A DNA stretch of 64,000 nt from Candidatus Heimdallarchaeota archaeon (GCA_020353515.1 CP070695.1:1077584-1141583), one strand, 5' to 3'; positions 34,965-60,489 are shown, numbered from the stretch's first letter. The notes: a model not told the origin generated them from the sequence alone. Program-made: numbers and translations.

Positions 34965-34981
34965 CGATTTTGAGTATTTAT
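34965..34981 (+). promoter_or_regulatory. Variant promoter motif CGATTTTGAGTATTTAT
   Basis: Matches the motif upstream of the repair genes. Confidence 0.5.
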
Positions 34982-35058: not shown

Positions 35059-35397
35059 GTGTTTCGGGATCAGGTTCGTCTTGTGGCATTAGATGGTCTT
35101 TTTAAAGAATGTCTCTTTTTAATCACGTCTAACGATAACGCTGCTGTTTATTGTCTCAAGTTTAAACTCTGGAATGAACCCTGCCCCAAAATGTGTGATC
35201 AGTATGTCCCAAGTGAGCCAGGCAATATTGAAGAGGCAAAACAGGCAAATTACGATATTGAATGTCTGGATTTCACTCGAAAACTCGTGGAGGGTGAACC
35301 CGAGTTTTACTGCTCTCTCTATAACTTGACAAAACCTCTCTGTAAAGAGTGTCTCTTTCATCGTTATGCAGAGGATCCTTCTATAAACAAAGAGTGA
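35059..35397 (+). CDS. Small protein with two Cys4 modules
   Basis: Two C-x14/15-C-x9-C-x2/3-C units. Confidence 0.75.
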   Translation: MFRDQVRLVALDGLFKECLFLITSNDNAAVYCLKFKLWNEPCPKMCDQYVPSEPGNIEEAKQANYDIECLDFTRKLVEGEPEFYCSLYNLTKPLCKECLFHRYAEDPSINKE

Positions 35398-46604: not shown

Positions 46605-48350
46605 TCACTGTAACTTAAACACTCGGTTCATTTTTGCGAAAAAGAGGTCATAAGCATTGTATAATGTTTGAAGATTACGATAAACATGGGTGGGGGGTAA
46701 CAGTGGTCTCATTTTGATGGCTCGATAGTCTAAGATTAAGCTGGCGGCAAAATCCGACTCGGATCTGATCCCTCGTCCAATAGCTTGTGATATTCCCCGT
46801 GTGACTGGTAACATGGACAATAGTTTAGCCATACGGTACCCCCATCTTTTAAGATAAAGAGATCTGAGCAGCTGGTTAGAAGCGTCTGGTCGGGGATATG
46901 GAAGACCTGCGATAATAATCAAGGATAAGAGGCTTCGTTTTGTTTTAGAATCTAGGATTTCTATTCCTTCAGATAACCTACCTCCAATCACACCAAAAAT
47001 GCACTCATGGTTCTTCTGTCTTAATTCATCTAAGAAGAAAGGTGTGGTACCTGGGTTTTCAATATAAACGTCTGGTAAAGAGATGTGAGCTAATAATTTC
47101 TGTTTAAATTCATGAGAAGTAGTAAAAACGATGGTATGGAAGGGATTACTCGAATGCAATCGTTCAATGACTGCTGCCATGGTTTCATACGTCCTGACGC
47201 TTCGCTCCGAGAACTTAGAGGTGAAATTTCTTTGATAGAGGATCCCATTCAGACTGAACTGGAAATCTGAAGGAATTTGTAGAGTAGCGTAATTCACATC
47301 GAAAAGCGCTTTGTATAAGGCAAGGGGGGTAAAAGTTCCTGACATTAGGAGTACCCTGTCGAAAAAATTGTTTATAAAATTAAATGCCTGATGGGGATAG
47401 GGATTTAGCTGAATTAATTTGTTTTTTTTCTCTGATACCCAGATATCCCCTCTAGATATTAGAAAATCTTTAACCTTTAACAGTGTCGCTTTCTCAACCA
47501 GTGTCAAGTTGTACTCGTGATCTAGGAAAGCATCCAAAGAAGCTGCAGACAGGTTCCTCGGTCTCTCCACTCTCCCGTTCTGTGATAATATTAGCTCTTG
47601 TAAGCTATCGATTACTTTCAATGGGATTATAGCTTGAGCTTTGTTTAGTTCGTGTAATGTGATTTCTGCTTCAAAGTCTGCTGTAAAATTATGTCCTTCG
47701 TCAATTATTGCCATTTGGTGAGGAAATGAGCTTTGTGAGATTAACTGGGAAAACATGTCTTGAAGGTTTTTACTCCTCAGGTAAGTCTGAGTAGTAACTA
47801 CAATGTTTGAATAGGGAATGCATCGTTTTATAATGTGATATGGACAACCAAACTCTCTGAAAGCCTCTTTGAATGTATCTATGGTGATGGAACCTTCATG
47901 GGCAGTAATTGGTATTTGTTCTACAATCGCAGGAAAATCTTCTTCTGGAACCGACTTTGCTTGTTCTAGGAAAGGACATCGAATCTGTTGACAGATGTTG
48001 TGATAGAATTGAGGGATCTCGTCTCGTTTTATACACAGATCCGCTTTCAAGATAAGAGGTAGGACGGTTAAGTAACCATATTTCTTACTATTCGCAATTT
48101 TAAAAATTTCCTCCAGAAAAACTCGGAATACTTGGGTCTTTGTTCGTACAAATATAAACAACTGATAATTTTTTGACCTCACCAAGGGAAGAGCATGAAT
48201 TAACGCCATAATCGTCTTCCCAAATCCAACTGGGGCGTGAATCATTGCCTTAGGATTTTTTTCGACAAATCGAAGGAATTTTGTTTGATAAGTGCGCAGT
48301 TCTTTGTGGGGAAAGAGCTGAAGTGCTGGGGGAAGATTCGTGTCAATCAT
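46605..48350 (-). CDS. XPD/Rad3/DinG-family Fe-S helicase
   Basis: APVGFGKT, four Cys ending in GCPY, IDEGHN, SGT, GRLSEGI, QAIGRGIR, LDYR. Confidence 0.9.
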   Translation of the reverse strand: MIDTNLPPALQLFPHKELRTYQTKFLRFVEKNPKAMIHAPVGFGKTIMALIHALPLVRSKNYQLFIFVRTKTQVFRVFLEEIFKIANSKKYGYLTVLPLILKADLCIKRDEIPQFYHNICQQIRCPFLEQAKSVPEEDFPAIVEQIPITAHEGSITIDTFKEAFREFGCPYHIIKRCIPYSNIVVTTQTYLRSKNLQDMFSQLISQSSFPHQMAIIDEGHNFTADFEAEITLHELNKAQAIIPLKVIDSLQELILSQNGRVERPRNLSAASLDAFLDHEYNLTLVEKATLLKVKDFLISRGDIWVSEKKNKLIQLNPYPHQAFNFINNFFDRVLLMSGTFTPLALYKALFDVNYATLQIPSDFQFSLNGILYQRNFTSKFSERSVRTYETMAAVIERLHSSNPFHTIVFTTSHEFKQKLLAHISLPDVYIENPGTTPFFLDELRQKNHECIFGVIGGRLSEGIEILDSKTKRSLLSLIIIAGLPYPRPDASNQLLRSLYLKRWGYRMAKLLSMLPVTRGISQAIGRGIRSESDFAASLILDYRAIKMRPLLPPTHVYRNLQTLYNAYDLFFAKMNRVFKLQ

Positions 48351-48369: not shown

Positions 48370-49392
48370 CTACTTCGAGTAATCCTGAACTCCTTCACCA
48401 GTAATTGCAAACTCAATTTTACCGTCAGGAAGTTCAGGGCTTTTCGTTAAGGTTGCAGTACGTTTAATTGCTTTTCCCTTTCTGATCATCAGTCTTGATG
48501 TAACAGTATGACCAACAACGTTGCCTCCTACGGGCTTATTAGGGTCACCGAAGAACATAGCATCAGGTTTCGCCGAGACTTGATTAGTTACGATCCCCAC
48601 GCAATTCAGAATTTCAGCCTGCTTGGAAATGAATGAAAGGTGTTTTCCTATTAACTGTTGTCTTTCAGCTAATGTTCCACGTCCAGCAAATTCACTTCGG
48701 AAGTGAGCCATAAGAGAATCAACGATAATCAATCCAACATTGGGGACCATTGTCAAAGCTTCTTCTGTTAGAGCCATTTGGTGTTCACTATTGTAGGCTC
48801 GTCCAACAGTGATTCGTGACAGCACTGTATCAGGATCCATACCAGCTGCTTCTGCTATTTGGACAATCCGATTGAATCTGAAAGTACCTTCGGTATCAAT
48901 CCACACCACATCTTGATCTAGGAATTTCACACAATTTATTGCTAGTTGGTGAGCTATTTGGGTTTTTCCACAGCCATTTTCCCCTGCTAGTTCAGTGATA
49001 CTACCTGTTTCAAAACCTCCACCGAGTAGGCTGTCAAAAGCTTGAGATCCCGTAGTTAATTTGACTCGTGTCTTTGCTGAGGCTTCATACTCTGATCCTT
49101 TTTTCAATCCAAGATCAAATCGAGCTCTTGCCTCTCGAATTAACAGAGCCGCTGTTTTCTCTGCAATGCCCGAAATCTCAGTTAATTGAGCTTTCGTTGC
49201 TAATGCGATTGATTCCTTACTTCCATACCCTGCTTCCTCCAAACGTTGGCGTGTGGTAGGGCCAATTCCAGAAATTGTTTTTAAGAAAGGTTTTTCTGAG
49301 TCAGTTGTTTTCTTTTGACTCTTTTTTGGTTTTTCTGTCTCACTGATTGCTTTAGGAGGAATTCCTTTTTCTTTAGATTCTACTTTTGCCAT
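48370..49392 (-). CDS. radA: RadA/Rad51 recombinase (divergent)
   Basis: HhH N-domain, LLGGGFETGSITE, GENGCGKTQ, IDTEGTF, DSLMAHFRSE, GRGTLAERQQ, TNQV. Confidence 0.92.
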   Translation of the reverse strand: MAKVESKEKGIPPKAISETEKPKKSQKKTTDSEKPFLKTISGIGPTTRQRLEEAGYGSKESIALATKAQLTEISGIAEKTAALLIREARARFDLGLKKGSEYEASAKTRVKLTTGSQAFDSLLGGGFETGSITELAGENGCGKTQIAHQLAINCVKFLDQDVVWIDTEGTFRFNRIVQIAEAAGMDPDTVLSRITVGRAYNSEHQMALTEEALTMVPNVGLIIVDSLMAHFRSEFAGRGTLAERQQLIGKHLSFISKQAEILNCVGIVTNQVSAKPDAMFFGDPNKPVGGNVVGHTVTSRLMIRKGKAIKRTATLTKSPELPDGKIEFAITGEGVQDYSK

Positions 49393-49434: not shown

Positions 49435-49500
49435 TCTGAGATAGATTTCCTCCCTCCCTTTTATATTCAGAATCGCCCCCTCACAATTTCTAGTATTTAA
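49435..49500. promoter_or_regulatory. Back-to-back variant promoters for radA (CGATTCTGAATATAAAA on -, 49459-49475) and the surface-protein operon (CAATTTCTAGTATTTAA on +, 49484-49500), plus ATCTATCTCAGA (-, 49435-49446)
   Basis: Motifs read directly; 8 bp apart in opposite orientation. Confidence 0.65.
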
Positions 49501-49519
49501 GGGTCATCAATCATCAGGA

Positions 49520-52500
49520 GTGAGATTATTAATAGTACTAGAGGCCGTCAGTATGTCTCGAGTTTTAGGAAACTACTCTTATAAATTATTTCTCATGAGC
49601 GTTTTTCTTGTCTTAATATTATCTGCCTTTTCTCCAACAACAGCTGCCCCAATAGCTACCTCTACTACCATTTTATCTGATGTGGGAGCTGTTGGGCCTG
49701 GTGGGACAATTCAATTCACTGTCTGGGTTTATGCAGATTTTGATCCTGTCCCCACAGGTCCCATCAGAATCACTCATCTTAACGATACTGATGAATATAT
49801 TGATACTACGATCCTAGCTGGTAAGGTAATAGTTAACTGGACGGTAAATAGTTATTCAGAAGGCGTACATGTCTTTCAAGCAGCATTTCAAGGATTTTTA
49901 GATTATTCTTCTTCCTCAGGTATTTGTTCTGTCAATTTCGACGATTTTTCTCCTGGTAGTTCTAAGACCACTATTATTTCTCTCTCTAGTAATTCCACTG
50001 TTGTGTACAAGAACTCTTCTATTCAATTTTCAGTTGATTTAGAAATTATTGGAGAGTTACATCCTCACTTTAGGGGAGGATATATTTACGTTAAGAATAC
50101 CAATCTCAGTGGATCTCCAACCATCTATTCTCATGGGCCTCTTCCTCTCCATATTTCTGCAGTGTATTCTTTTTCTTTTGATTACCAAATACCTACTTTT
50201 TCCTCCATTGGGGTTAATTCATTTATAACAGAATACACTGGGAGTTCAGAATCCCAAACAAAGCCCTGTACGTCATCTCTTCATAATATTACAGTATTGA
50301 GTACTGGTTATTTGTTAGTTCAGAATTTGGATCATAGTTCCCTCCAGCGTGAAGAAAGAACTCTAGAACTCAATACTACGGTACTTGGGGATAATCCAGT
50401 AGGATTGGAGTTAAAAACTTACTATATCCTTAATGAAGAAGAAATTATCATTCAAGATCAGATCCTCGAATCCCGGAACACTGTATCTCATTTCTCACCT
50501 AATAGTTCGGTACCGACTGGCATTTTATCAATTATCACAGAGCTAATTGATCCAAGTACAGAATTACAATATGCTAATGCAACGGAAAATGTATCAATTA
50601 TCGATCGAGCACGAATTGACCATTCTGAGAACGCTACTGAATATAGACATAATGAAACCATCCGTTTTGATGTTTATGTTACCGAAGAGGACGTTTGGAC
50701 GCATCCTGTTGTATCTGAAGTCGAACTAATTGATGTTACCGATAACAATCGTTCTGTCATTAATAAAACCACAAATCAGGATGGATTTGTGATAATTGAA
50801 TATACTATTCCTGGAAATTCCACGGTTGGAAATCATGATTTCAGTTTAAAGACCCATGACTCAGGTTCATTCATTGCTGACATTTCCGAAACATTCCCCA
50901 TCGTTATTAAGGGTTTGACGGAATTTGATTTGACTTATGAGAGTGGAGGAGTGGAAAGGAATTCCATCACCATCATTGAGGTAACAGTTCTCTCAGGAGG
51001 TAATCCAATTAGCGAAGGATTCGTTACATTGGAATTCGCTAGTAATAGCACGGTTATTGAAACCCAAGCGTGTGAACCTGGACTTGAATTTCATTACTTT
51101 ATCAAAACGTCGCATCCGCGTGGTGATATGGATTATCAAGTTCATTTCTTTGGTTCAACCAATTATGATGAACATTTAGAATCATTTGTTCTCTCAATAT
51201 TTTCTAATCCAATATTCAATACTACGGGTCAAAATGCAACAAATGTCATTAAAGGGCATACAGTACGGATTTGGGGCCAATTAGTTGATGAATCCTCACA
51301 AATCCTTGCTAATGAAGAGGTACAACTGACAGACACCTCGACTGGTATCTTTTTAGGAACTAGCATTACAGACGCGCAAGGTATTTTTGTCTATGATTAC
51401 TATATCTCAGACTCTACCCAGATTGGATTACATTTCGTCGAAATAGCTTATACTGGGAATCCTCTAGAATTCTACCATTCAGCAGTCAACACTCCCGTCT
51501 TGAGCTTCACTGTGAGACCACCACTATCTATTTTGATTGATACTGAGGTGGTTGCAGAGTATTGGACAATTATTGTTTTGGAAGGTGGATTAAACGATGA
51601 AATATTGTTAGAATGGCAAAAGGAGGGGGAATCTGATTGGGAAAATCTTGGGGTAATTATTCTTAATTCCACTGGTCAGGGTTCTTATAACTGGACCACA
51701 CCTTATTATAAGGGCGCTTTCACTATTCGGGCAATAGGCCCGAATGGTACTAAATATGATGTTTCATCAATGTTCGCAATCCCGAAGATAGTTGTAGAAG
51801 GTGATGAAATCGGTAATGTTAATGATCCCTATCCTTTTACAGTTAATTCTTCAGAACAATACCAAATTTGGATAGGAGACCAGCTGTGGCAAGACTGGAG
51901 GGCAGGTGGCGTACATGAATACGAGTATACCTTTACAAACCGTGGAATTAAAGAACTCCTCATAATTAGCAACAATTCTTACGTCTATTATCAAGAATAC
52001 CGACATTCTCTTCTGGTTTTTGAGGATGTATTTATTACACTGTCAGCCCCTCTTGAAGCTCTAGTAAATATCACTGTGAATTTAGATGGTACAGTTATCG
52101 GGGAGGTTTCTGGTCCGATACAGGCAATGGATGTCATCTTAGAGGTAAATGGGACTGAAGTGCAGGTTGACTCGACTGATGGTGCTGGAAATTACTATTT
52201 CTCACTCATTTTCGATGTTCCTGGTCATTATAACCTTATGACGAAAACTCCCCTAAGTGCAACCGATTTTTATATTGCTAGTTTCAGCGATGTTTCGATT
52301 ATATCGATTAGGTCGAATCCTGCTGATATACAAATATTAAATCCTTTAAATCGAACTTACAGAGCCATTGTTGAAATCTCCCTTACTGGGAACGCGGAGA
52401 GTTATTGGTATCGTATTGCCCCCATCGATTCAAAGAATCTTTCTTGGTCGGCTCCTATCTTTCGAGAGTTAGTGGAGGGGAATTATACATGTCATTTCTA

Positions 52501-54337
52501 TGGTCAGAACGCTTTTGGAGTCATAACGTATGCCTATTCAAACTTCGGTGTAGATACAACGGCTCCCTCCCTAGTTCTGGTGAATCCTGAAAATATTACT
52601 TATACTACTGATGAAATCCTATTATCTTATCTATCAGATGAAGATGAAGTATTGATTTTTCTAGATGGAGTTGAATTAGAGGATATTAGCTCGGGTTCAT
52701 TACTTTTTGATCTAGCTGAGGGAGACCATAACTTGACAATCATGACTACTGATGAAGTTGGAAATAATATCAAACGTGTAGCATTGTTTAGTGTTGACAC
52801 CATTCCTCCGAGTTTAGAAATCTTTTCCCCATACAATCAGAGTTATATTTCTGAAATCGAAATTAGGTTAGGGTCAAACGGTAGTACCGTACTCTATTAC
52901 ATCTCCTCTGTTTATTCCTATAATCAAACGTATTCAGAACCATTCTGGCTTAATTTGTCGATAGGAAATTACCAGCTCGTAGTACATGCTTTTGATGACG
53001 CTGGTAATGTCCATACTGAGTCTGTATTTTTCTCTATTGTTCAAACGATTGATTTATTGGTCGGTCCTAACTACGAGGTTCTTGATGGTGCTGGAACTTA
53101 CTTAATCTATACAGAGATTCTGAATCATCCGAATTTTGATTGCGTAGGGGTTAATCTCAATGGTAGCTTTGAGGGATGTCTAGAGTGGAGTTATCTTTAC
53201 CTCGATTATCGTTTAACTATACAATTTGAAACTCCCGGAATATGGGAGGTCACGCTATTTGCAAACACTACCTTACAGGAATATGATTTTCATTATTTTG
53301 AAATTGAATGGAATCCTCCACCTCCATCATTTGAAACAATCTCTATTTCACATACATCCTCTTCATTCGATGTTCGTGTGCACATTGATTCAGGATCTTT
53401 ATCCTTGGAAAATATTAAGGTTTTATACAATGGATCTTTTTATGATCTAACTGAATCTTATGGTAATCGTTGGGAAGGTAGTTTACCCTTCATTCCCCAC
53501 AACACAACAATAGTATTTTCTGCTTGGTACCCATGGAGTCTCACGACTCCTGCAGCTCAACAAGAGTATGATATTCACTGGTACGCTCCTGTAATTTCGG
53601 TAGAATATGTCCCCTCACGGACGGATTTCACCTTACAGCTTCAGATCATGAAACAAAATGCTACAATAGATACCTCCTCAGTTACATTGATTATTAGTAA
53701 TGGATCCTTTCAGATCACTGTGAATGAAACTTCTTTTTATGAGGATTTGACACGAAGTTACCAGGAATGGGAATTTATTTCTCCAACTCTTTTTCCGAGT
53801 TTGTGGCATTTTTCTGTAAATGTTACAGATATTTATGGAGTAACTCGGATTTTCACAGGGCTCTTTAATGCTACTGATACTCCTCCAGTCTTTGGAAATA
53901 AATCAATGGTTCTCGAAAATAGTCATAAACAAGGGGAAATGTGGTGTCTTGAAATCGGTGTCACTGATGATTATGAGATTGATGGAGTTTTTTTGTTTGT
54001 TGATGGGATCAAACTAGTCCCTAGTACCCAGAATGATACTCACTTTACTTTTGATATCTGGTTAGATGAAGGTATTCACAATCTTCAAGTAGTAGCGGTT
54101 GATGATATTGGCCAAGAAAACACATTGATTCTACCGTCTATTGAAGTGACTTTATATCATTCATCTGTTTCAAGAAGTAGTCCTGAAGATATTATTACTT
54201 CAGAGGGCTCTTCTCATAGTAATCTTGCAGAAGATAACAAAAGAAATGGTGATCTTGATGAGATCAGTCTAGCTGGGAGCATTTTTGCAGGATTAATCAT
54301 TGTAGGAAATGTGATTAATCGGAAGAGGCGTGGTTGA
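49520..54337 (+). CDS. Large secreted Ig-like repeat surface protein with C-terminal anchor
   Basis: Signal peptide, repeated TDxxG and DTxPPxLxIxSPxNxTY modules, many N-x-S/T sequons, TM plus RKRRG; the start may be ATG 49553. Confidence 0.88.
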   Translation: MRLLIVLEAVSMSRVLGNYSYKLFLMSVFLVLILSAFSPTTAAPIATSTTILSDVGAVGPGGTIQFTVWVYADFDPVPTGPIRITHLNDTDEYIDTTILAGKVIVNWTVNSYSEGVHVFQAAFQGFLDYSSSSGICSVNFDDFSPGSSKTTIISLSSNSTVVYKNSSIQFSVDLEIIGELHPHFRGGYIYVKNTNLSGSPTIYSHGPLPLHISAVYSFSFDYQIPTFSSIGVNSFITEYTGSSESQTKPCTSSLHNITVLSTGYLLVQNLDHSSLQREERTLELNTTVLGDNPVGLELKTYYILNEEEIIIQDQILESRNTVSHFSPNSSVPTGILSIITELIDPSTELQYANATENVSIIDRARIDHSENATEYRHNETIRFDVYVTEEDVWTHPVVSEVELIDVTDNNRSVINKTTNQDGFVIIEYTIPGNSTVGNHDFSLKTHDSGSFIADISETFPIVIKGLTEFDLTYESGGVERNSITIIEVTVLSGGNPISEGFVTLEFASNSTVIETQACEPGLEFHYFIKTSHPRGDMDYQVHFFGSTNYDEHLESFVLSIFSNPIFNTTGQNATNVIKGHTVRIWGQLVDESSQILANEEVQLTDTSTGIFLGTSITDAQGIFVYDYYISDSTQIGLHFVEIAYTGNPLEFYHSAVNTPVLSFTVRPPLSILIDTEVVAEYWTIIVLEGGLNDEILLEWQKEGESDWENLGVIILNSTGQGSYNWTTPYYKGAFTIRAIGPNGTKYDVSSMFAIPKIVVEGDEIGNVNDPYPFTVNSSEQYQIWIGDQLWQDWRAGGVHEYEYTFTNRGIKELLIISNNSYVYYQEYRHSLLVFEDVFITLSAPLEALVNITVNLDGTVIGEVSGPIQAMDVILEVNGTEVQVDSTDGAGNYYFSLIFDVPGHYNLMTKTPLSATDFYIASFSDVSIISIRSNPADIQILNPLNRTYRAIVEISLTGNAESYWYRIAPIDSKNLSWSAPIFRELVEGNYTCHFYGQNAFGVITYAYSNFGVDTTAPSLVLVNPENITYTTDEILLSYLSDEDEVLIFLDGVELEDISSGSLLFDLAEGDHNLTIMTTDEVGNNIKRVALFSVDTIPPSLEIFSPYNQSYISEIEIRLGSNGSTVLYYISSVYSYNQTYSEPFWLNLSIGNYQLVVHAFDDAGNVHTESVFFSIVQTIDLLVGPNYEVLDGAGTYLIYTEILNHPNFDCVGVNLNGSFEGCLEWSYLYLDYRLTIQFETPGIWEVTLFANTTLQEYDFHYFEIEWNPPPPSFETISISHTSSSFDVRVHIDSGSLSLENIKVLYNGSFYDLTESYGNRWEGSLPFIPHNTTIVFSAWYPWSLTTPAAQQEYDIHWYAPVISVEYVPSRTDFTLQLQIMKQNATIDTSSVTLIISNGSFQITVNETSFYEDLTRSYQEWEFISPTLFPSLWHFSVNVTDIYGVTRIFTGLFNATDTPPVFGNKSMVLENSHKQGEMWCLEIGVTDDYEIDGVFLFVDGIKLVPSTQNDTHFTFDIWLDEGIHNLQVVAVDDIGQENTLILPSIEVTLYHSSVSRSSPEDIITSEGSSHSNLAEDNKRNGDLDEISLAGSIFAGLIIVGNVINRKRRG

Positions 54338-54921
54338 TGAAAAATAGTACTCATTATCTCTTTGCAGTTGGCTTACTTAATCTCTACGTACTAATCTTCA
54401 TTCGAGATCCACTTCTTGCTTGGGTGTTTTTTATTTTATCTTTCCCCCTAAGCGGAGTTAGCCTTCTTCCCAACCTTTTAGACAGCTACACAGCTGCTGA
54501 TTTGAAATTTGAAGGAGTACAGCTACATCGTGTCCGTCATCCATTAACTCATTCCCCATGGACCTTAGGTTATTTTCTCCCACTTTATTATATAGGAGAA
54601 CAGTTTTCAAATCAATTTTTTATCTTCATGGTCTTTGTATTAGTCCTAGGGTGGCTTTCTCATCTTTTGTTAGATACCCTTAATCCTGAAGGTATTCCAT
54701 TAGGGAAACAACCTATATTTTTACCACATCCCGTCAAACACTATTCATTTCAACGGAAACGTACCAATACTAGAGTTTTAAGGTTAGCTCGTATTCCGTT
54801 TAATGACCTCAAAAGGAATGCAACGTTTTCACGATGTGGCTTGTTGTTTTTAGCCCTAAATATGGCAGATTTAATCTATAATCATCTTCAAGTCATTACA
54901 GAGGTGATATTTTTTGTATAA
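54334..54921 (+). CDS. YdjM-like membrane metal-dependent hydrolase
   Basis: THY, LLPNLLD, RHPLTHS, SHLLLDTLNPEGIP. Confidence 0.8.
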   Translation: MMKNSTHYLFAVGLLNLYVLIFIRDPLLAWVFFILSFPLSGVSLLPNLLDSYTAADLKFEGVQLHRVRHPLTHSPWTLGYFLPLYYIGEQFSNQFFIFMVFVLVLGWLSHLLLDTLNPEGIPLGKQPIFLPHPVKHYSFQRKRTNTRVLRLARIPFNDLKRNATFSRCGLLFLALNMADLIYNHLQVITEVIFFV

Positions 54922-55966
54922 GTCGCGTATATTTTTCGGACTGATATTCCTACTAAGTTTATCATCTTTCTATAACATTTTAATTGTAGAAGCCACTATG
55001 AATTCCCAACCTGTGAAACTTACCTCTGAAATCCACGACTTAAAGATTTCTCAAGTTATTACAGAAGTAGAAACAACTTTTCAACGAAACATCATTCTGT
55101 CACAGGGTTGGGATAGGGTATTACTAAATTTGAGCGTCCAAAACTTTGGTGACCATCTTGATACTGTCTTTCTAAAAGTTACAGCAAATGGCGCTCCTAT
55201 CCAAGCCACCTTCCGTGCTTTTGAAGAGGTTGGATTAGTACAAGCAATTTCCTTTCAGTTTGAGGTTCCTCAAACACTTGTGATGACGTTGAATTATACT
55301 AAGCAAACTCAGATCCAATTAGAAATTATAATTCTATTGGATTATGGAGTGACTCTCGATGAACCTTTCATTGATTTTTTGATTCAAGGAGCTCAACTGA
55401 TAGCTCTAAATCTAGCACATCCAATGGAAAGGCACCAAATACCTTTATTTAATACAAATCATCACTACCAGATTCAACCAGTGAAATATTCCTTTTTAAA
55501 GAAAGATCTTTTCTCTTCAGCGTTATTATTCGTTCAAATACCTGTTGAAATGCAACTAAAATTAACTGTATCTGTATCATTACACGGAACCAAGATTAAC
55601 TCTTTGACAATAGACGATCAGACTTTTTATCCGAGTGAAAATGACTTTACAATCAACTTCAATTATACTAAGGCTCCCACATCTATAGGTCAGGATTTAT
55701 TCTTAACGATGATAATCTCTCCTGACTATGAGGGTTTAGATGGATTAACACAGATCGTACTATCGACTTCTGTTATTGGGGTACTTCAACCACTTTCAAG
55801 TTTCCCGATAGGTAATGTGTTAGGATCACATCCCATTCCAGGGATTATTATGCTTCCTATTCTATTAATCAGTTTATTTGGCATACCATACTATTTAGTG
55901 TATCAGGAGCACGCATCTGACCGTGATGAAAATATCCTTGATCCACACAAAAAGACCAATTTGTGA
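54914..55966 (+). CDS. Extracellular beta-rich protein with signal peptide and C-terminal TM
   Basis: Hydrophobic termini; overlaps its neighbours (operon). Confidence 0.75.
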   Translation: MYKSRIFFGLIFLLSLSSFYNILIVEATMNSQPVKLTSEIHDLKISQVITEVETTFQRNIILSQGWDRVLLNLSVQNFGDHLDTVFLKVTANGAPIQATFRAFEEVGLVQAISFQFEVPQTLVMTLNYTKQTQIQLEIIILLDYGVTLDEPFIDFLIQGAQLIALNLAHPMERHQIPLFNTNHHYQIQPVKYSFLKKDLFSSALLFVQIPVEMQLKLTVSVSLHGTKINSLTIDDQTFYPSENDFTINFNYTKAPTSIGQDLFLTMIISPDYEGLDGLTQIVLSTSVIGVLQPLSSFPIGNVLGSHPIPGIIMLPILLISLFGIPYYLVYQEHASDRDENILDPHKKTNL

Positions 55967-56400
55967 ATAATTTGAATACTAATGTACTCAAAATTAAACC
56001 AATAGTCTTTGTCGGAAAATATCAAGATATAATTGAGAATCTTCTGGGTGAAAATATTCTGTTTCTGAAACCTAAAGTAATTTGGATCGAATACCGAACA
56101 ATTCCAATCTTTAAAATTATGAGAAGCTTACGTGATCATCCTCAATTGTCTAGTCAGTCTTATTTTCTGGAGATATCCTCTCTCGAGGCTTTGAACCATC
56201 TATTGAGATCAAGAGCATTGCTTAGGATCTCTCAACATGGCTTTTCAACTTTAATTATCGATGTACCTGAATATTGTTCAATTCCTATTGATTTCTATGT
56301 TCGATTTCAAGAACTAATGAGAAAGACTAACATAATTCTGATCATGGAAAGTGAATTGACGCTTTCGAGATCGCAGATAAATTTAATAAGAGTAGAGTGA
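55963..56400 (+). CDS. Small hypothetical protein, possibly a degenerate RecA-fold protein
   Basis: Strand pattern IVFVG, KVIWIE, TLIIDVP, IILIME parallels the RecA core without a Walker A. Confidence 0.55.
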   Translation: MNNLNTNVLKIKPIVFVGKYQDIIENLLGENILFLKPKVIWIEYRTIPIFKIMRSLRDHPQLSSQSYFLEISSLEALNHLLRSRALLRISQHGFSTLIIDVPEYCSIPIDFYVRFQELMRKTNIILIMESELTLSRSQINLIRVE

Positions 56401-56403
56401 GAG

Positions 56404-57129
56404 ATGACATCATTCCAATTGGTTCCCCTTCACGAGATAGCGTCAAGATGGAATAAACAGATTGCTTTTCCTCTTGACATTGATTTGATTGATGAAATAA
56501 TCGGAGGACTCATTCCTTCTCAGCTTCACATCGTTGTAGGTGATTCAGGTGTAGGAAAAACTTGGTTTTGTTTAAAGGCAATATTTCAGATATTAACTAA
56601 GAATCCCCAAGCTCATGTAGTATACAATGATTTTAGAGGAAACTTCCGAATTAATAATTTGCGAAAAATGCTCTCTAATCCATGTGAACAACTTGATCAG
56701 ATTACGATCTTCCAACCAACAAGTTTACTTGAGCAGATCATCTTTGTCCGAAATTTACTAGAAATTTCTGATTGTTCTTTTGATTTAATTGTCTTAGATT
56801 CTGTTTTTGGTTCTCCATTAACATGTCTAGAATATTTCTATAAGAAATCAAAATTCTGGAATAAGAAGATTTTTGCACATCTACTCGATTTACAAACTGT
56901 TGCTCGTCAGATGAAGATACCTATCCTACTAACTAATCATCTGATTTCAACTAGGGAGAATTTCGAACTAGGTTCATCTTTGAATCAATATGGTGGAGAT
57001 TTAGTCGAACAATTTGTCCCCATTATGTTTTCCCTCAAAAAAATTGCTCAAAAACTGTTTATAGAACTCAGAATTTTCCAAGAAATAATTGATCATTCTG
57101 ATTTATTCCCTCCTATAAATGAGAGTTAA
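56404..57129 (+). CDS. RadB/Rad51-paralogue ATPase
   Basis: IDEIIGGL, GDSGVGKT, LIVLDSV, ILLTNH, QYGG; no N-terminal HhH domain. Confidence 0.82.
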   Translation: MTSFQLVPLHEIASRWNKQIAFPLDIDLIDEIIGGLIPSQLHIVVGDSGVGKTWFCLKAIFQILTKNPQAHVVYNDFRGNFRINNLRKMLSNPCEQLDQITIFQPTSLLEQIIFVRNLLEISDCSFDLIVLDSVFGSPLTCLEYFYKKSKFWNKKIFAHLLDLQTVARQMKIPILLTNHLISTRENFELGSSLNQYGGDLVEQFVPIMFSLKKIAQKLFIELRIFQEIIDHSDLFPPINES

Positions 57130-57171: not shown

Positions 57172-58314
57172 GTGGCAGGAATGCTGCAAAAAATCCATCA
57201 AATGTTCAATAGATCTTCTACAAGGATAATTTCCTCGTTTTTTTTCTTTTTTCTTTCATTACAAATTTTCAGTTTTTTTTGGGTTGCTGGAAGTCCGGAT
57301 AATTACCAAAAAGTTGAAATAAATGCGGAAGCGGATGCCTATGTAAGTTCTAATTATCCTTCTAGTAATTTAGGAGATTTATTAACTTTAGGAGTCACGA
57401 ATGCTGTCAATGAAACAATGATTTCATATATACGATTCGATATATCGGAAATTGCTGTTCCTATTGAATCTGCAGTATTGAGATTAACAACTTATACTGC
57501 AGAATGGAGTGGGGACGCTCCTCAGAAAGTTACTGTTTATGGGTGCGACAATAATACTTGGTATGAGAATACGATCACATTTTGGAATATACCTACTTGT
57601 GTTGGTCAAATCTTAGATTCTCATAGTGTAAACACAGCCCAACAATCTCTCAATCGATGGGATGTCGCTTCCTGGGTTCGGGTTCGAACACATTTGAATG
57701 AAGGAAAGGTGACCTTTTTCCTGAAAATGGAACCAATCACGAATGACTATTTTTCGTTTTTTTCTAAAGAGGGAGTTAAAAATAAAGCAGTACAAGACCT
57801 TTGGGGTTCTGTTTCACCTCCTCTTCTCATCATAAATGATGACAGTTCCCTTTTTACTACTTTAGCTGATAATCCTACTTTTTCCCTGGTCATACTGCTT
57901 TGCATTACAGGAGGGGTATTTTTCTTTATTATCTTCTTATTCCTAAGGACGTCTCCTTCTCCCAGTCCAGTGTTACCAAGAAAGAAATCTTCTAAACCTC
58001 CGCCATCAATTGAGGCGAGGAATGCCATTATTTTTACTTCACTAGCTAAGAAACTCTTTGAAACATCAATTGAAAAACCAATATCACCTGTGAAACCTGA
58101 ACCAATGGATCTTGATACAGAAATTGTCCTGACTCCTAAAGAAAGAAGGAGTTTTTTTTGTCAGATCGATGGTCAAAAACATCCTGCAACTGATTCTGCC
58201 TATGAGTGCGAAGAATGTTCTCGTAATGTGTGCGGGAGCTGTCATGAGAGCAGTAAAGTTGTTGGTATTGGTGGTTGCCCCTTTTGTCAGGGAAGATTAA
58301 TCCGAATACAATAA
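57172..58314 (+). CDS. Single-pass membrane protein: extracellular DNRLRE/CBM96-like domain, cytoplasmic RING-like Zn finger
   Basis: ADAYVSS..P..N.G, SYIRFDIS, SAVLRL, WYENTITF; TM; CQID..CEEC..CGSC..CPFC. Confidence 0.78.
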   Translation: MAGMLQKIHQMFNRSSTRIISSFFFFFLSLQIFSFFWVAGSPDNYQKVEINAEADAYVSSNYPSSNLGDLLTLGVTNAVNETMISYIRFDISEIAVPIESAVLRLTTYTAEWSGDAPQKVTVYGCDNNTWYENTITFWNIPTCVGQILDSHSVNTAQQSLNRWDVASWVRVRTHLNEGKVTFFLKMEPITNDYFSFFSKEGVKNKAVQDLWGSVSPPLLIINDDSSLFTTLADNPTFSLVILLCITGGVFFFIIFLFLRTSPSPSPVLPRKKSSKPPPSIEARNAIIFTSLAKKLFETSIEKPISPVKPEPMDLDTEIVLTPKERRSFFCQIDGQKHPATDSAYECEECSRNVCGSCHESSKVVGIGGCPFCQGRLIRIQ

Positions 58315-58325
58315 AATGACGGCTA

Positions 58326-59579
58326 TTAGAGCGAGATCAAGATGTAAGCGAGGGTTAAAATAACACTATAGGGGATATACAGTGCGATCAATCGTAATTT
58401 GGATATTGGATAATCCCCCAACTTTGCATGTTCTTCTTTAAATGGTTTAAAGCCTCTACCCACTAATACATGATCTTTCTGATCCTTGCTTAGGACAATC
58501 TTTACTTCTGGGAATTCTCTGAATGTATGACGATAGAATAAAACGTTTTCAAGCTTATTGATGATCCCTTGAAATTCTTCTTTTTTATTTAACAGCTTAG
58601 TAGTTGTGCTTTTACTGATTTTTGGAATTTTATCTGGCTCTGAACCACTAAAGGAATCTTTTTCTAATATTTCGATTAGTCGTGCATCTTCATTAGGTAA
58701 ATCTTTGAGTTCAGAGTCTCCAATGATCTCATTATTTCTCTCCTTAAAGACATGGACATTCTTCCAATGATTAAATTCATATAATCTACCAGTGAATTTT
58801 CCAAGAGAACCCTCACCTTGGCAAATAGAACACGTAATATCCCCAGAACCACCACAGGAACTACAACTGACTCTTCCACTAAAACACGAACAGGAATCTT
58901 GAACAGTCTTTCTTTCATCCCCATCCCATTCTGTCCGTTCTATATAGCCCCAACCAGAACATCTTGAACATGTGACTGTACCACTCCCAGAACAACTGGA
59001 ACAGGATACTTTCCCCAGTCCTTCACATGTAGAACATGTTTCTTTTTTTAGGGTTCCACTAAGAGGAAATTCTTGGTGGTAATTGACAAAAGTCTTGGGA
59101 TAATTGACTGGAAAAGGTTCTTTTTCTGAAAAAAAGGCTAAACTACTGGCTTGAGAGTAAGGTAAAGACCTTTCAGTATTGGATGTCTGAAAATATTCTG
59201 CCTCGGACTCTACTTCAACAAGAATAGAGCGTTCGGTTTCAGAACTGAAACTCGCAATGTGAGGTACTCTCCGTAAAAAACCTTTTAATCCTCTTTTCTG
59301 AGCAATCCACCAACCAGTAAGAATATCTTGTTCTGTAAGAGGCTCATAATTTGGCTGCAAAGAATCAGATTGTATCAGAGAGTAATATTCCTCCACCCAA
59401 GAAGGCGAATGCCGATAACGCGTAGTGAAAAGGAGGATGAAAACCAAATAAACGATAAATGAAATCACAGAGAATAATATGAAAGAATCTGGAGAACTGG
59501 AAAAGATAAGGAACAAATATCCTTGTGATACAATCCATATTGGGAGTAATAAAATCCAGAGATATTGATTTCTTCCCAT
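58326..59579 (-). CDS. Membrane protein with CxxCxGxG (DnaJ-type Zn finger) repeats, SSUH2-like
   Basis: Five CxxCxGxG plus one degenerate copy, no J domain, TM at both ends. Confidence 0.78.
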   Translation of the reverse strand: MGRNQYLWILLLPIWIVSQGYLFLIFSSSPDSFILFSVISFIVYLVFILLFTTRYRHSPSWVEEYYSLIQSDSLQPNYEPLTEQDILTGWWIAQKRGLKGFLRRVPHIASFSSETERSILVEVESEAEYFQTSNTERSLPYSQASSLAFFSEKEPFPVNYPKTFVNYHQEFPLSGTLKKETCSTCEGLGKVSCSSCSGSGTVTCSRCSGWGYIERTEWDGDERKTVQDSCSCFSGRVSCSSCGGSGDITCSICQGEGSLGKFTGRLYEFNHWKNVHVFKERNNEIIGDSELKDLPNEDARLIEILEKDSFSGSEPDKIPKISKSTTTKLLNKKEEFQGIINKLENVLFYRHTFREFPEVKIVLSKDQKDHVLVGRGFKPFKEEHAKLGDYPISKLRLIALYIPYSVILTLAYILISL

Positions 59580-59700
59580 TGTTGTTCCCTAGAACTATAA
59601 TCATTTAATGATGATTTTTATCATTTTAAGTTTTATCAGAGGATTTTCTAGCAAAAAAGTGAGATATACTTAAAATAATAAGAGATTTCTATCTTCATGA

Positions 59701-60489
59701 GTGTTGAATTTGGAAAGGTGTTGGACTTGTGGGAAAACGATTAAAGAAGGATCACCACATCTTCACTTCTGTTCTACACAATGTCAAAGAGCTTATTCAA
59801 TGGATCAAAAAGATTTCGATAAGAAGCAGAGTTTAAAAAGAATAAAAGGAGCCAAAAAAGGATTATGGACGATTCCGTGTCCATATTGTAATGTAACATT
59901 AGACTTGACAACAGAATTTAATTTTTGTTCAGAATGTGGACAAGAAATACATGAAAGATTGTTTTTTCTTAGGAAACCAGATTCTAGTAAAGAAACGTAC
60001 ACCTTTAGTTACAAAGATAAGCGGGGTTTCATCACAGGATTCACAGCCCAAAGATCTGGAAAATTACCTAATTGTAAAATTCTTGACAATGATGGATCAG
60101 TAATAGGAGAAATCAGGGGCAATCTTCTTTTTACTAGAGGGAGAACCTCTGAATTATCTGAAACAGCCAAAATACTCACAGACAAGATTGAAACTACTTT
60201 TGGTTTATTCACAGCAGAGAGACAGTCTGAGGAAAGTATTTCAGTAATAGACTCACACGGAACCAGTTGTTTTAATATTCATGCTTTAGAAGAAGCATCA
60301 TTACAGGGACAACAACGCTGGAAGAGAGTTTCCAGAGGCTTGGGATTTGACCTTCACGAATTGAGAGATTTCCGCGTTTTATCAAATGGGAAATTAGATC
60401 CCTGTTTTATCTTTTTAGCGTCGATATCAATTCTTGAAGGAATGTTTAGACTAGTAAAACGGGTTCGTCGCGATTCAGAGGGCGACTGA
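59701..60489 (+). CDS. Double Zn-ribbon protein with a possible Tubby-C/scramblase-like domain
   Basis: CWTCGK..FCSTQC; CPYC..FCSECG; ILDNDGSVIGEIRG; terminal hydrophobic helix LDPCFIFLASI. Confidence 0.65.
   Translation: MLNLERCWTCGKTIKEGSPHLHFCSTQCQRAYSMDQKDFDKKQSLKRIKGAKKGLWTIPCPYCNVTLDLTTEFNFCSECGQEIHERLFFLRKPDSSKETYTFSYKDKRGFITGFTAQRSGKLPNCKILDNDGSVIGEIRGNLLFTRGRTSELSETAKILTDKIETTFGLFTAERQSEESISVIDSHGTSCFNIHALEEASLQGQQRWKRVSRGLGFDLHELRDFRVLSNGKLDPCFIFLASISILEGMFRLVKRVRRDSEGD

What the first reader, a model, noticed from the sequence alone, without database searches (positions are those of the whole stretch)
49484..57129. Giant surface protein and membrane proteins in one operon with RecA-family paralogues, divergent from radA-xpd
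Seen: five genes with overlapping or 3-bp junctions (1605-aa Ig-like surface protein, YdjM-like hydrolase, TM-anchored extracellular protein, putative dead RecA fold, RadB-like ATPase). They share a bidirectional promoter with radA. Established: ydjM is LexA-regulated in E. coli, and Sulfolobales couple damage-induced cell contact (Ups) and DNA import (Ced) to recombination. Inference: this could be a cell-contact or DNA-exchange module feeding homologous recombination. No VirB4/HerA ATPase, pilin or ComEC is visible in the window, so the translocation step is unexplained.
Basis: partly seen in the sequence, partly recalled or inferred. Interest (0 to 1): 0.8.

Follow-up and report, generated by a model that had tools for sequence, protein, structure and literature searches.

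The report
Envelope operon carrying RecA-fold gene pair
In one genus of Hodarchaeales (Asgard archaea), three cell-surface/membrane genes are packed in a single operon with two cytoplasmic RecA-like genes next to a radA gene; the linkage is real and conserved, but the two halves are gained and lost independently and nothing found here shows DNA exchange.

Summary
Five tightly packed + strand genes lie divergent from radA-xpd. They encode a ~1,600-aa multi-Ig surface glycoprotein, a YdjM-family membrane hydrolase, a bitopic protein with two jelly-roll ectodomains, a 145-aa protein and a RadB-like protein.

The 145-aa protein models as a RecA/Rad51 core without a P-loop (Z 10.5). The RadB-like protein keeps Walker A and B but lacks the catalytic Glu and conserved DNA-binding loops. 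The two are predicted to heterodimerise (score 0.84, best control 0.01).

The block occurs only in one Hodarchaeales genus. The TM350 profile matched 20 of 21 genomes there and 0 of 62 other Heimdallarchaeia. Gene order is identical in every locus read.

The block is composite:
- The RecA-fold pair was deleted at least twice while the envelope trio and radA stayed; one genome keeps a remnant.
- In another sub-lineage radA-xpd was truncated or deleted while all five genes stayed.

The two core promoters are separate, 30-260 bp apart in relatives. The rare radA-type promoter motif is not in front of the operon. No ComEC is in the genome and no HerA/VirB4-type ATPase is in the window.

Best reading: an envelope trio plus an optional Rad51-paralogue-like heterodimer. 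A DNA-exchange role is unsupported but not excluded. The scan noted the RecA-fold pair before, on this same window only.

The parts
46605..48350 (-). XPD/Rad3-type helicase gene, downstream of radA
   Evidence: Helicase_C_2 1e-18, DEAD_2 4e-8, TIGR00604 rad3 1.6e-27. Follows radA directly or after an ~860-aa gene in relatives.
48370..49392 (-). radA (island copy), one of five full-length RadA paralogues in the genome
   Evidence: Rad51 PF08423 9.7e-75; NF003301 RadA 361 bits against a cut-off of 259. Four further copies at 34-47% identity elsewhere in the genome.
49460..49474 (-). radA BRE/TATA element of the rare type GATTYTGARTATWWA
   Evidence: 4 matches in 4.94 Mb (1.2 expected). Three lie in this window (34966, 49474, 61800) and the fourth lies inside a coding frame. 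Conserved upstream of radA in relatives.
49487..49502 (+). Core promoter (BRE/TATA-like TTTCTAGTATTTAAGG) of the five-gene operon
   Evidence: The only match to TATWTAAG on the + strand between 49400 and 57500. Similar elements precede the giant gene in relatives, at 30-260 bp from the radA TATA.
49553..54337 (+). Giant surface glycoprotein (1594 aa from ATG 49553; longest ORF from GTG 49520): signal peptide, many Ig-like/beta-sandwich domains, Ser/Thr-rich stalk, C-terminal TM helix and basic tail
   Evidence: Big_13 1.1e-9 and weaker Big_3, MG2 and CarboxypepD_reg hits. 46 sequons, 201 D+E against 65 K+R, conserved C-terminal G-SIFA...GN..RKRR. Full-length homologues carry only Hodarchaeales-type or other Asgard MAG labels; most are 1584-1608 aa, plus a ~996-aa form.
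54337..54921 (+). YdjM/DUF1286-family polytopic membrane metal-dependent hydrolase
   Evidence: PF04307 3.7e-8, 33.5 bits (cut-off 29); DUF1286 2.9e-4. H68, H72, H109 and D113 invariant in orthologues and paralogues.
54914..55966 (+). TM350: bitopic protein with N-terminal signal/TM, two jelly-roll beta-sandwich ectodomains, a C-terminal TM and a conserved cytoplasmic tail
   Evidence: No Pfam or NCBIfam hit. Model pLDDT 74.7. Domain 1 matches the furin P-domain (Z 11.0), BcsB (Z 10.1) and many CBMs (Z 7.5-8.7). Profile found in 20 of 21 genus genomes and 0 of 62 other Heimdallarchaeia.
55963..56400 (+). P0004: 145-aa minimal RecA/Rad51-like fold without Walker A
   Evidence: Model pLDDT 86.6, pTM 0.82. 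VIA-align Z 10.5, rmsd 3.3 A, 143 of 145 residues aligned to a chain of a RAD51-paralogue (DX2-CX3) complex, with RAD51, RAD51C-XRCC3, BCDX2 and RecA entries at Z 9.5-10.3. Atlas TM 0.69-0.72 to RecA, Rad51 and KaiC clusters. No sequence hit in the PDB.
56404..57129 (+). P0005: RadB-derived ATP-binding RecA-family protein
   Evidence: TIGR02237 RadB 6.9e-16, 58.8 bits (cut-off 172.4). Family profile best matches S. solfataricus RadA 2bke at 1.8e-12, then DMC1, RAD51D and RadB. Walker A G-x2-G-x-GK[TS] and Walker B Asp are invariant; the Glu of IDTEG is replaced; the L2 region is not conserved. Predicted heterodimer with P0004.

Best explanation
The five genes form one conserved, probably co-transcribed unit that exists only in one Hodarchaeales genus. 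It is built from two separable modules.

Module A is always present. It comprises an acidic, heavily glycosylatable, membrane-anchored multi-Ig surface protein, a YdjM-family membrane metallohydrolase with its metal ligands intact, and a bitopic protein with two carbohydrate-binding-module-like jelly-roll ectodomains. Inferred role: making, processing or anchoring a cell-surface structure.

Module B is optional. It comprises a P-loop-less RecA fold (P0004) and a RadB-derived protein (P0005). P0005 can still bind ATP but lacks the catalytic Glu and conserved DNA-binding loops. The two are predicted to pair through the N-terminal beta-strand of P0005, much as Rad51-family subunits dock on each other.

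Most likely Module B is a Rad51-paralogue-type accessory heterodimer (RadB or Rad55-Rad57-like) that modulates one or more of the genome's five RadA paralogues. It sits at the 3' end of the envelope operon inside a conserved DNA-repair gene island and depends on that operon's promoter. No DNA transfer through the envelope proteins is needed to explain it.

Shown: gene content, folds, motifs, conservation and the independent losses. Inferred: co-transcription, heterodimer formation, and the functions of both modules.
For: Anatomy and packing.

P0005:
- Nearest relatives by profile are RadB and RadA, not KaiC or ArlH.
- The family is sharply bounded: E falls from 1e-57 to 1e-26 or worse.

P0004:
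- RecA/Rad51 fold at Z 10.5, rmsd 3.3 A, 143 residues aligned.
- Atlas TM about 0.7 to RecA and Rad51 clusters.
- Weak but collinear profile match to P0005.

Heterodimer:
- Score 0.84 in all three runs; best of 3 controls 0.01.
- The mark was reached by 58 of 80 solved complexes and 2 of 110 mismatched pairs. These counts hold only roughly, because my own alignments were used.
- The runs share at least 88% of contacts, and the partner's pLDDT is at least 81.
- The pass may partly reflect likeness to solved Rad51-paralogue complexes.

Repair island conserved in the genus: Hef-like, xpd, radA | operon | Cas4-like, 148-aa and 458-aa genes.

Separability:
- The pair is absent in G003, G008 (99% complete) and G012, with the trio and radA intact.
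- These genomes are not sisters on the tree of the giant protein, so there were at least two losses.
- G003 retains a P0004 remnant at L054:12812-12904.
- The TM350 cytoplasmic tail is unchanged in genomes without the pair.

Another RadB-like gene and five RadA paralogues exist in the genome.
Against: - The pair has never been seen away from the envelope trio: it lies directly downstream, 11 bp or less apart or overlapping, in the nine loci where ORFs were called, and in the same order in the others.
- The pair survives where the neighbouring radA-xpd is truncated (L070) or gone (L069, L037). G021 has no orthologue of this radA at all. So it is not tied to that radA.
- Paralogous YdjM-like/TM350-like cassettes in five relatives also sit beside a cytoplasmic P-loop ATPase, a 425-aa AAA. 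This hints that the membrane pair works with an ATPase.
- Loss of the catalytic Glu and of the L1/L2 loops fits a non-DNA role equally well.
Confidence: 0.4

Rival explanations
1. The RecA-fold heterodimer is a cytoplasmic ATP-binding partner of the envelope trio, acting in assembly, gating or signalling at the membrane as ArlH/KaiC-type RecA-fold proteins do. It has no role in DNA transactions, and its place in a repair island is historical.
For: - The pair is found only directly behind the trio and only in the genus that has the trio.
- It is retained when radA-xpd is deleted.
- P0005 lacks the catalytic Glu and conserved L1/L2 loops.
- Paralogous YdjM-like/TM350-like cassettes lie next to an AAA ATPase in 5 of 5 loci read.
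Against: - The nearest relatives of P0005 are RadB and RadA, not KaiC or ArlH.
- The trio and its conserved cytoplasmic tail are unchanged in three genomes that deleted the pair.
- No interaction with the membrane proteins was tested.
Confidence: 0.25
2. One reading: the whole block is a cell-contact or DNA-exchange device whose surface proteins bring in DNA, which the RecA-fold pair hands to the neighbouring RadA for recombination.
For: - It would explain both the operon linkage and the position inside a repair island.
- In every locus with enough upstream sequence to judge, the trio keeps at least one RecA-family neighbour.
- The giant protein has adhesin-like Ig domains.
Against: - No translocase: ComEC has no match in the genome, and the nine HerA/DUF87 matches all lie outside the window.
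- Double dissociation of trio, pair and radA.
- The operon lacks the strict radA-type promoter motif, and promoter spacing is not conserved.
- YdjM is a 12-member family here, with no repair link.
- The TM350 ectodomain resembles carbohydrate-binding modules. The SIDT-like two-domain match is weak (Z 8.0, rmsd 4.8 A; Foldseek TM below 0.3).
Confidence: 0.12
3. The pair is a decaying, functionless remnant of a RadB or RadA duplication that merely persists behind the envelope operon.
For: - Lost at least twice.
- Catalytic Glu lost, and P0004 has no P-loop.
Against: - Intact reading frames of constant length in almost every genome that carries the pair; the one exception found is G021, whose P0005 match contains 2 in-frame TGA codons. 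Sequence identity among orthologues is only 30-54%.
- 20 invariant positions in P0005, including Walker A and B.
- Confident fold and interface predictions.
Confidence: 0.05

Closest known systems
Archaeal RadB (TIGR02237) and RadA ATPase core
   Same: P0005 has the size and architecture of RadB: a RecA core without the N-terminal HhH domain. Walker A and B and the GG motif are intact. RadB and RadA are the nearest families by profile.
   Different: It scores 58.8 bits against a cut-off of 172.4. The catalytic Glu of IDTEG is replaced and the L2 region is not conserved. It is genus-restricted and encoded behind envelope genes; the nearest outgroup RadB-like gene read (P0054) has an unrelated context.
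Eukaryotic Rad51-paralogue heterodimers (Rad55-Rad57, XRCC2-RAD51D, RAD51C-XRCC3, Csm2-Psy3)
   Same: Two adjacent RecA-fold proteins, one of them degenerate, are predicted to heterodimerise. The best structural matches of P0004 are chains of RAD51-paralogue complexes and RAD51 itself.
   Different: No sequence-level orthology. Binding to RadA or DNA was not tested. The pair is co-transcribed with surface and membrane proteins.
ArlH (FlaH) and single-domain KaiC-like ATPases
   Same: Small RecA-superfamily proteins that work with membrane machinery rather than DNA. Weak FlaH and KaiC hits.
   Different: Sequence affinity is to RadA and RadB, not KaiC. There is no archaellum or T4P platform gene in the operon.
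Sulfolobales Ups pili and Ced DNA importer
   Same: Only the concept: envelope functions coupled to recombination after DNA damage.
   Different: No pilin, no CedA-like or CedB/HerA-type component in the window. No shared damage-type promoter motif.
Archaeal surface-layer gene pairs (large glycoprotein plus membrane-anchored partner, e.g. SlaA/SlaB)
   Same: A large glycosylatable Ig-rich protein is followed by a smaller membrane-anchored beta-sandwich protein. It has a signal peptide, a Ser/Thr stalk and a C-terminal anchor.
   Different: There is no homology. The giant has its own anchor. The S-layer protein reported for cultured Hodarchaeales is described as a homotetramer conserved across many Promethearchaeota (bioRxiv 10.1101/2025.02.26.640444), unlike this genus-restricted protein.

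Membership tests
RadB (NCBIfam TIGR02237 equivalog) | Score at or above the curated cut-off (172.4 bits) | tested here: not met
   58.8 bits, E 6.9e-16.
RadB / RadA ATPase core | Walker A GxxGxGK[TS] and Walker B hhhhD | tested here: met
   G46, G49, G51, K52 and D132 are invariant in 10 orthologues.
RadB / RadA ATPase core | Catalytic Glu in the IDTEG motif after strand 2 | tested here: not met
   The profile aligns 'ysdfsG' to RadA 'YIDTEG'. That position is R, S, C, Q, N or E among the orthologues.
RadA / Rad51 recombinase | Conserved DNA-binding loops L1 and L2 | tested here: not met
   The L2-equivalent region (residues ~183-205) is variable and gapped among orthologues. The L1-equivalent motif reads G-S-P-L, without the RadA HFR motif.
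RecA/Rad51 fold (P0004) | Central beta-sheet alpha/beta core superposable on RecA-family ATPases | tested here: met
   Z 10.5, rmsd 3.3 A, 143 of 145 residues. Foldseek E about 1e-4 to KaiC, RadA and DMC1. Atlas TM 0.69-0.72. This rests on a predicted model (pLDDT 86.6) built from a 10-sequence alignment.
RecA/Rad51 ATPase (P0004) | P-loop (Walker A) | tested here: not met
   After strand 1 the sequence reads G-x-Y with no GK[TS]. Invariant positions are G18, Y20, W41, F68 and F94 only.
Rad51-paralogue heterodimer | The two RecA-fold subunits bind each other | tested here: met
   In silico only. Score 0.84, best of 3 controls 0.01. The mark was reached by 58 of 80 solved complexes and 2 of 110 mismatched pairs. 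At least 88% of contacts are shared between runs and the partner's pLDDT is at least 81. The pass may reflect likeness to solved complexes.
Rad51-paralogue mediator | Binds RadA/Rad51 filaments or ssDNA and stimulates strand exchange | not testable with these tools
Biochemistry is needed.
YdjM (PF04307) | Score above the gathering threshold, with conserved His/Asp metal ligands | tested here: met
   33.5 bits against 29. H68, H72, H109 and D113 are invariant.
SOS-type damage regulon membership of ydjM | Damage-responsive operator upstream | tested here: not met
   The strict radA-type motif occurs at 34966, 49474 (radA) and 61800 but not in front of the operon. LexA regulation itself is a bacterial feature.
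Ced / ComEC DNA import systems | Membrane DNA channel plus HerA/VirB4-type or ComEC component in or near the locus | tested here: not met
   PF03772 has no match in the 96%-complete genome. PF01935 has nine matches, none in the window. CedA has no model on hand and was not tested.
   13 of 13 same-genus loci plus L069 and L070. A three-gene version occurs in G003, G008 and G012. TM350 was not found in 62 genomes of other Heimdallarchaeia families.

The most novel reading that the evidence does not exclude
A lineage-specific Rad51-paralogue-like heterodimer in the archaeal order held to be closest to eukaryotes is physically coupled to a surface-protein/membrane module. This would be either a membrane-tethered recombination accessory that handles incoming DNA, or a RecA fold recruited to power or regulate an envelope machine.
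Probability: 0.3. Interest if true: 0.75.

Novelty: new variant of a known kind. Interest (0 to 1): 0.45.

Why it matters
Hodarchaeales are the archaea currently placed closest to eukaryotes, and how Rad51 paralogue complexes arose is an open question. This genus carries five RadA paralogues. It also carries a home-grown heterodimer of one ATP-binding and one P-loop-less RecA fold, the same design as eukaryotic Rad51-paralogue mediators, evolved independently. Its strict co-location with envelope genes is unusual for recombination accessories. It sets up a clear experiment: does the pair bind RadA or DNA, or does it bind the membrane proteins? If the link is only historical, the locus shows how far operon context can mislead.

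Tried and rejected
2. G015 (L029) seemed to show a RadA paralogue fused upstream of the giant gene. An N-run separates them, so the adjacency is unreliable and was discarded.
3. P0003 fold: Foldseek's top hits were SIDT1/2 ectodomains (dsRNA transporters), but TM is below 0.3. The wide search shows generic jelly-roll/CBM matches, and SIDT2 reaches only Z 8.0 with rmsd 4.8 A. No nucleic-acid inference was drawn. The Atlas feature search gave no usable hit.
4. Giant as the S-layer protein: the architecture fits. However, the published Hodarchaeales S-layer protein is described as widely conserved and tetrameric, so this reading was not adopted.
5. YdjM paralogue contexts in the own genome show no recurrent partner, only a short-chain dehydrogenase and others.
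6. The fourth genomic copy of the radA-type promoter motif lies inside a coding frame, so there is no extra regulon member.
7. Sister-family radA contigs (G022, G023) are 2-2.6 kb, too short to show the ancestral context.
8. P0004 has no sequence match in the PDB even at E 10; only fold comparison identifies it.
9. The first complex-prediction run failed because the machine was busy. One script call returned nothing and was rerun.
10. The tree is the quick version because the careful search did not finish. The two-loss inference rests on SH-aLRT values of 96-98.
Full report
**Observation**

The window is G000:C1:1077584-1141583 of a 4.94-Mb single-contig genome. Names attached to orthologues place it in Hodarchaeales-type Asgard archaea.

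Their junctions are a TGATG stop/start overlap, an 8-bp overlap, a GTGA overlap and a 3-bp gap. radA (48370-49392) and an XPD/Rad3 helicase (46605-48350) run the other way.

The 127-bp spacer does not hold one shared promoter. It holds two back-to-back BRE/TATA elements about 30 bp apart.

**The genes**

- **P0001 (giant).** The likely start is ATG 49553, giving 1594 aa, as in the collection's record. It has a signal peptide, weak-to-moderate Ig-like Pfam hits (Big_13 at 39 bits), 46 N-glycosylation sequons and a strong acidic bias. A Ser/Thr-rich stalk precedes a conserved C-terminal TM helix and basic tail.
- **P0002.** It passes the PF04307 YdjM threshold (33.5 against 29 bits) and keeps invariant His and Asp residues.
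- **P0003.** It has no family hit. Its model (pLDDT 74.7) shows an N-terminal signal/TM, two beta-sandwiches and a C-terminal TM. The first ectodomain is a jelly roll like the furin P-domain (Z 11.0), BcsB (Z 10.1) and many carbohydrate-binding modules.
- **P0004.** It has no sequence relatives outside the genus. It models confidently (pLDDT 86.6, pTM 0.82) as a RecA/Rad51 core: Z 10.5, rmsd 3.3 A over 143 of 145 residues against chains of RAD51-paralogue complexes, RAD51 and RecA. Atlas TM is about 0.7 to RecA, Rad51 and KaiC clusters. It has no P-loop.
- **P0005.** It is RadB-like (TIGR02237 at 58.8 bits, far below the 172.4 cut-off). Its family profile is closest to S. solfataricus RadA, DMC1, RAD51D and RadB, and in the 1.8-billion-protein library to RadB and RadA. 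Walker A and B are invariant. The catalytic Glu of IDTEG is replaced and the L2 region is not conserved.

**The pair**

P0004 and P0005 are predicted to bind:
- The score is 0.84 in all three runs, and the best of 3 controls is 0.01.
- The mark was reached by 58 of 80 solved complexes and 2 of 110 mismatched pairs. These counts hold only roughly, because my own alignments were used.
- At least 88% of contacts are shared between runs, and the partner's pLDDT is at least 81.
- The N-terminal strand of P0005 (residues 4-9) docks on strand 66-69 of P0004.

Because Rad51-paralogue complexes have been solved, the pass may partly reflect that likeness. A weak but collinear profile match is compatible with P0004 being a degenerate duplicate.

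**Conservation**

- All five genes, in the same order, occur in 13 of 13 same-genus loci and in two further public contigs.
- In the nine loci where ORFs were called, P0003 and P0004 overlap or lie 11 bp or less apart.
- The P0003 profile is found in 20 of 21 genus genomes and in none of 62 genomes of other Heimdallarchaeia families.
- The P0005 and giant families are likewise genus-restricted and sharply bounded.
- The wider neighbourhood is a conserved repair-gene island: Hef-like, xpd, radA | operon | Cas4-like, 148-aa and 458-aa genes.

**Dissociation**

- **Pair lost, trio and radA kept.** G003, G008 (99% complete) and G012 have giant-YdjM-TM350 next to radA but lack P0004-P0005, both at the locus and anywhere in the genome.
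  - On a tree of the giant protein they are nested among five-gene genomes and are not sisters (SH-aLRT 96-98, quick tree). That implies at least two losses.
  - G003 still carries a 31-codon P0004 remnant.
  - The conserved cytoplasmic tail of TM350 is unchanged in these genomes.
- **radA-xpd lost, five genes kept.** In a sub-lineage with a 996-aa giant, all five genes are intact.
  - radA is cut to 196 residues in L070, and is gone together with xpd in L069 and L037.
  - G021 (88% complete) has no orthologue of this radA.
- **Summary.** The trio is constant and the pair is optional. The neighbouring radA is dispensable for the pair. The pair is never seen away from the trio.

**Other context**

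- The genome has five full-length RadA paralogues and a second RadB-like gene.
- PF04307 has 12 matches in the genome, with unrelated neighbours.
- Five relatives carry a paralogous YdjM-like/TM350-like cassette beside a 425-aa AAA ATPase. G000 does not.
- The strict radA-type promoter motif occurs four times in the genome against 1.2 expected. Three copies are in this window (radA, the Cas4-like operon and 34966) and none is in front of the operon.
- The distance between the radA and operon TATA boxes ranges from about 30 to 260 bp in relatives.
- ComEC has no match in the genome. HerA/DUF87 ATPases all lie outside the window.

**Reading**

The block is a composite of an envelope trio and an optional Rad51-paralogue-like heterodimer.

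- **Recombination accessory (0.40).** By homology the pair is most likely a recombination accessory riding on the envelope operon's promoter within a repair island.
- **Membrane partner (0.25).** Its exclusive association with the trio, and its independence from the neighbouring radA, keep open a role as a partner of the membrane proteins.
- **DNA exchange (0.12).**
- **Decaying remnant (0.05).** This is unlikely, given intact frames in almost every genome that carries the pair and 20 invariant positions in P0005.

Nothing in the held literature describes this pair or its context. The Asgard RadA study PMC12722695 removed RadB-like and highly divergent sequences. The scan noted the RecA-fold pair before, on this same window only.

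Noticed in passing
window 34966, 49474 (-), 61800 (-): The extended BRE/TATA motif GATTYTGARTATWWA occurs 4 times in the 4.94-Mb genome (1.2 expected). Three copies are in this window, in front of radA, the Cas4-like operon and the gene at 35059. The fourth (genome 4192064) lies inside a coding frame. It is a candidate small regulon that excludes the five-gene operon.
   Followed up: partly
genome G000:C1 1486193, 1428848, 3812393, 3961488 (outside the window): The genome encodes five full-length RadA-type paralogues. The window copy lacks the QLPxxxGG insert that the sister-family RadA has (L071, L072). The other four sit in unrelated contexts.
   Followed up: partly
L048-L052 (G020, G004, G012, G018, G003): A paralogous cassette is conserved in five relatives and absent from G000. 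It comprises YdjM-like, TM350-like and a 233-aa membrane protein, flanked by a 425-aa AAA (PF00004) ATPase, a 563-aa protein and a 292-aa protein. In L052 the 233-aa and 563-aa parts are fused into one 988-aa protein.
   Followed up: partly
L054:12812-12904 (G003): A 31-codon remnant of the P0004 gene, identical over 11 residues to the window protein, sits right after TM350. This is direct evidence that the RecA-fold pair was deleted.
   Followed up: yes
L069, L070, L037: A sub-lineage has a shortened giant (about 996 aa, the N-terminal 57%) and different deletions upstream. These removed xpd and part or all of radA, leaving fragments of neighbouring genes.
   Followed up: partly
window 57172-60489: Three genes are absent from this position in relatives: a CBM96/DNRLRE-TM-Cys-rich protein, a 417-aa membrane protein and a 262-aa zinc-ribbon protein. 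They are inserted between P0005 and the Cas4-like operon. Relatives have a ~290-aa gene of no known family there instead.
   Followed up: partly
L025, L027, L030, L033, L034 (between radA and xpd): Relatives carry an ~860-aa gene with no Pfam or NCBIfam match between radA and xpd. It is absent from the window, where xpd follows radA after 19 bp.
   Followed up: no
L029:13300-13400 (G015): The 'single-contig' genome G015 contains N-runs at gene boundaries. It is probably a concatenated MAG or has withheld stretches, so adjacencies across them should not be trusted.
   Followed up: yes
L010 (G021:C49:8532-9230): The P0005 orthologue of G021 matches over residues 1-234 but has 2 in-frame TGA codons inside the match. 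This may mean a broken gene, sequencing error or recoding. It is the one exception found to intact frames for the RecA-fold pair.
   Followed up: no
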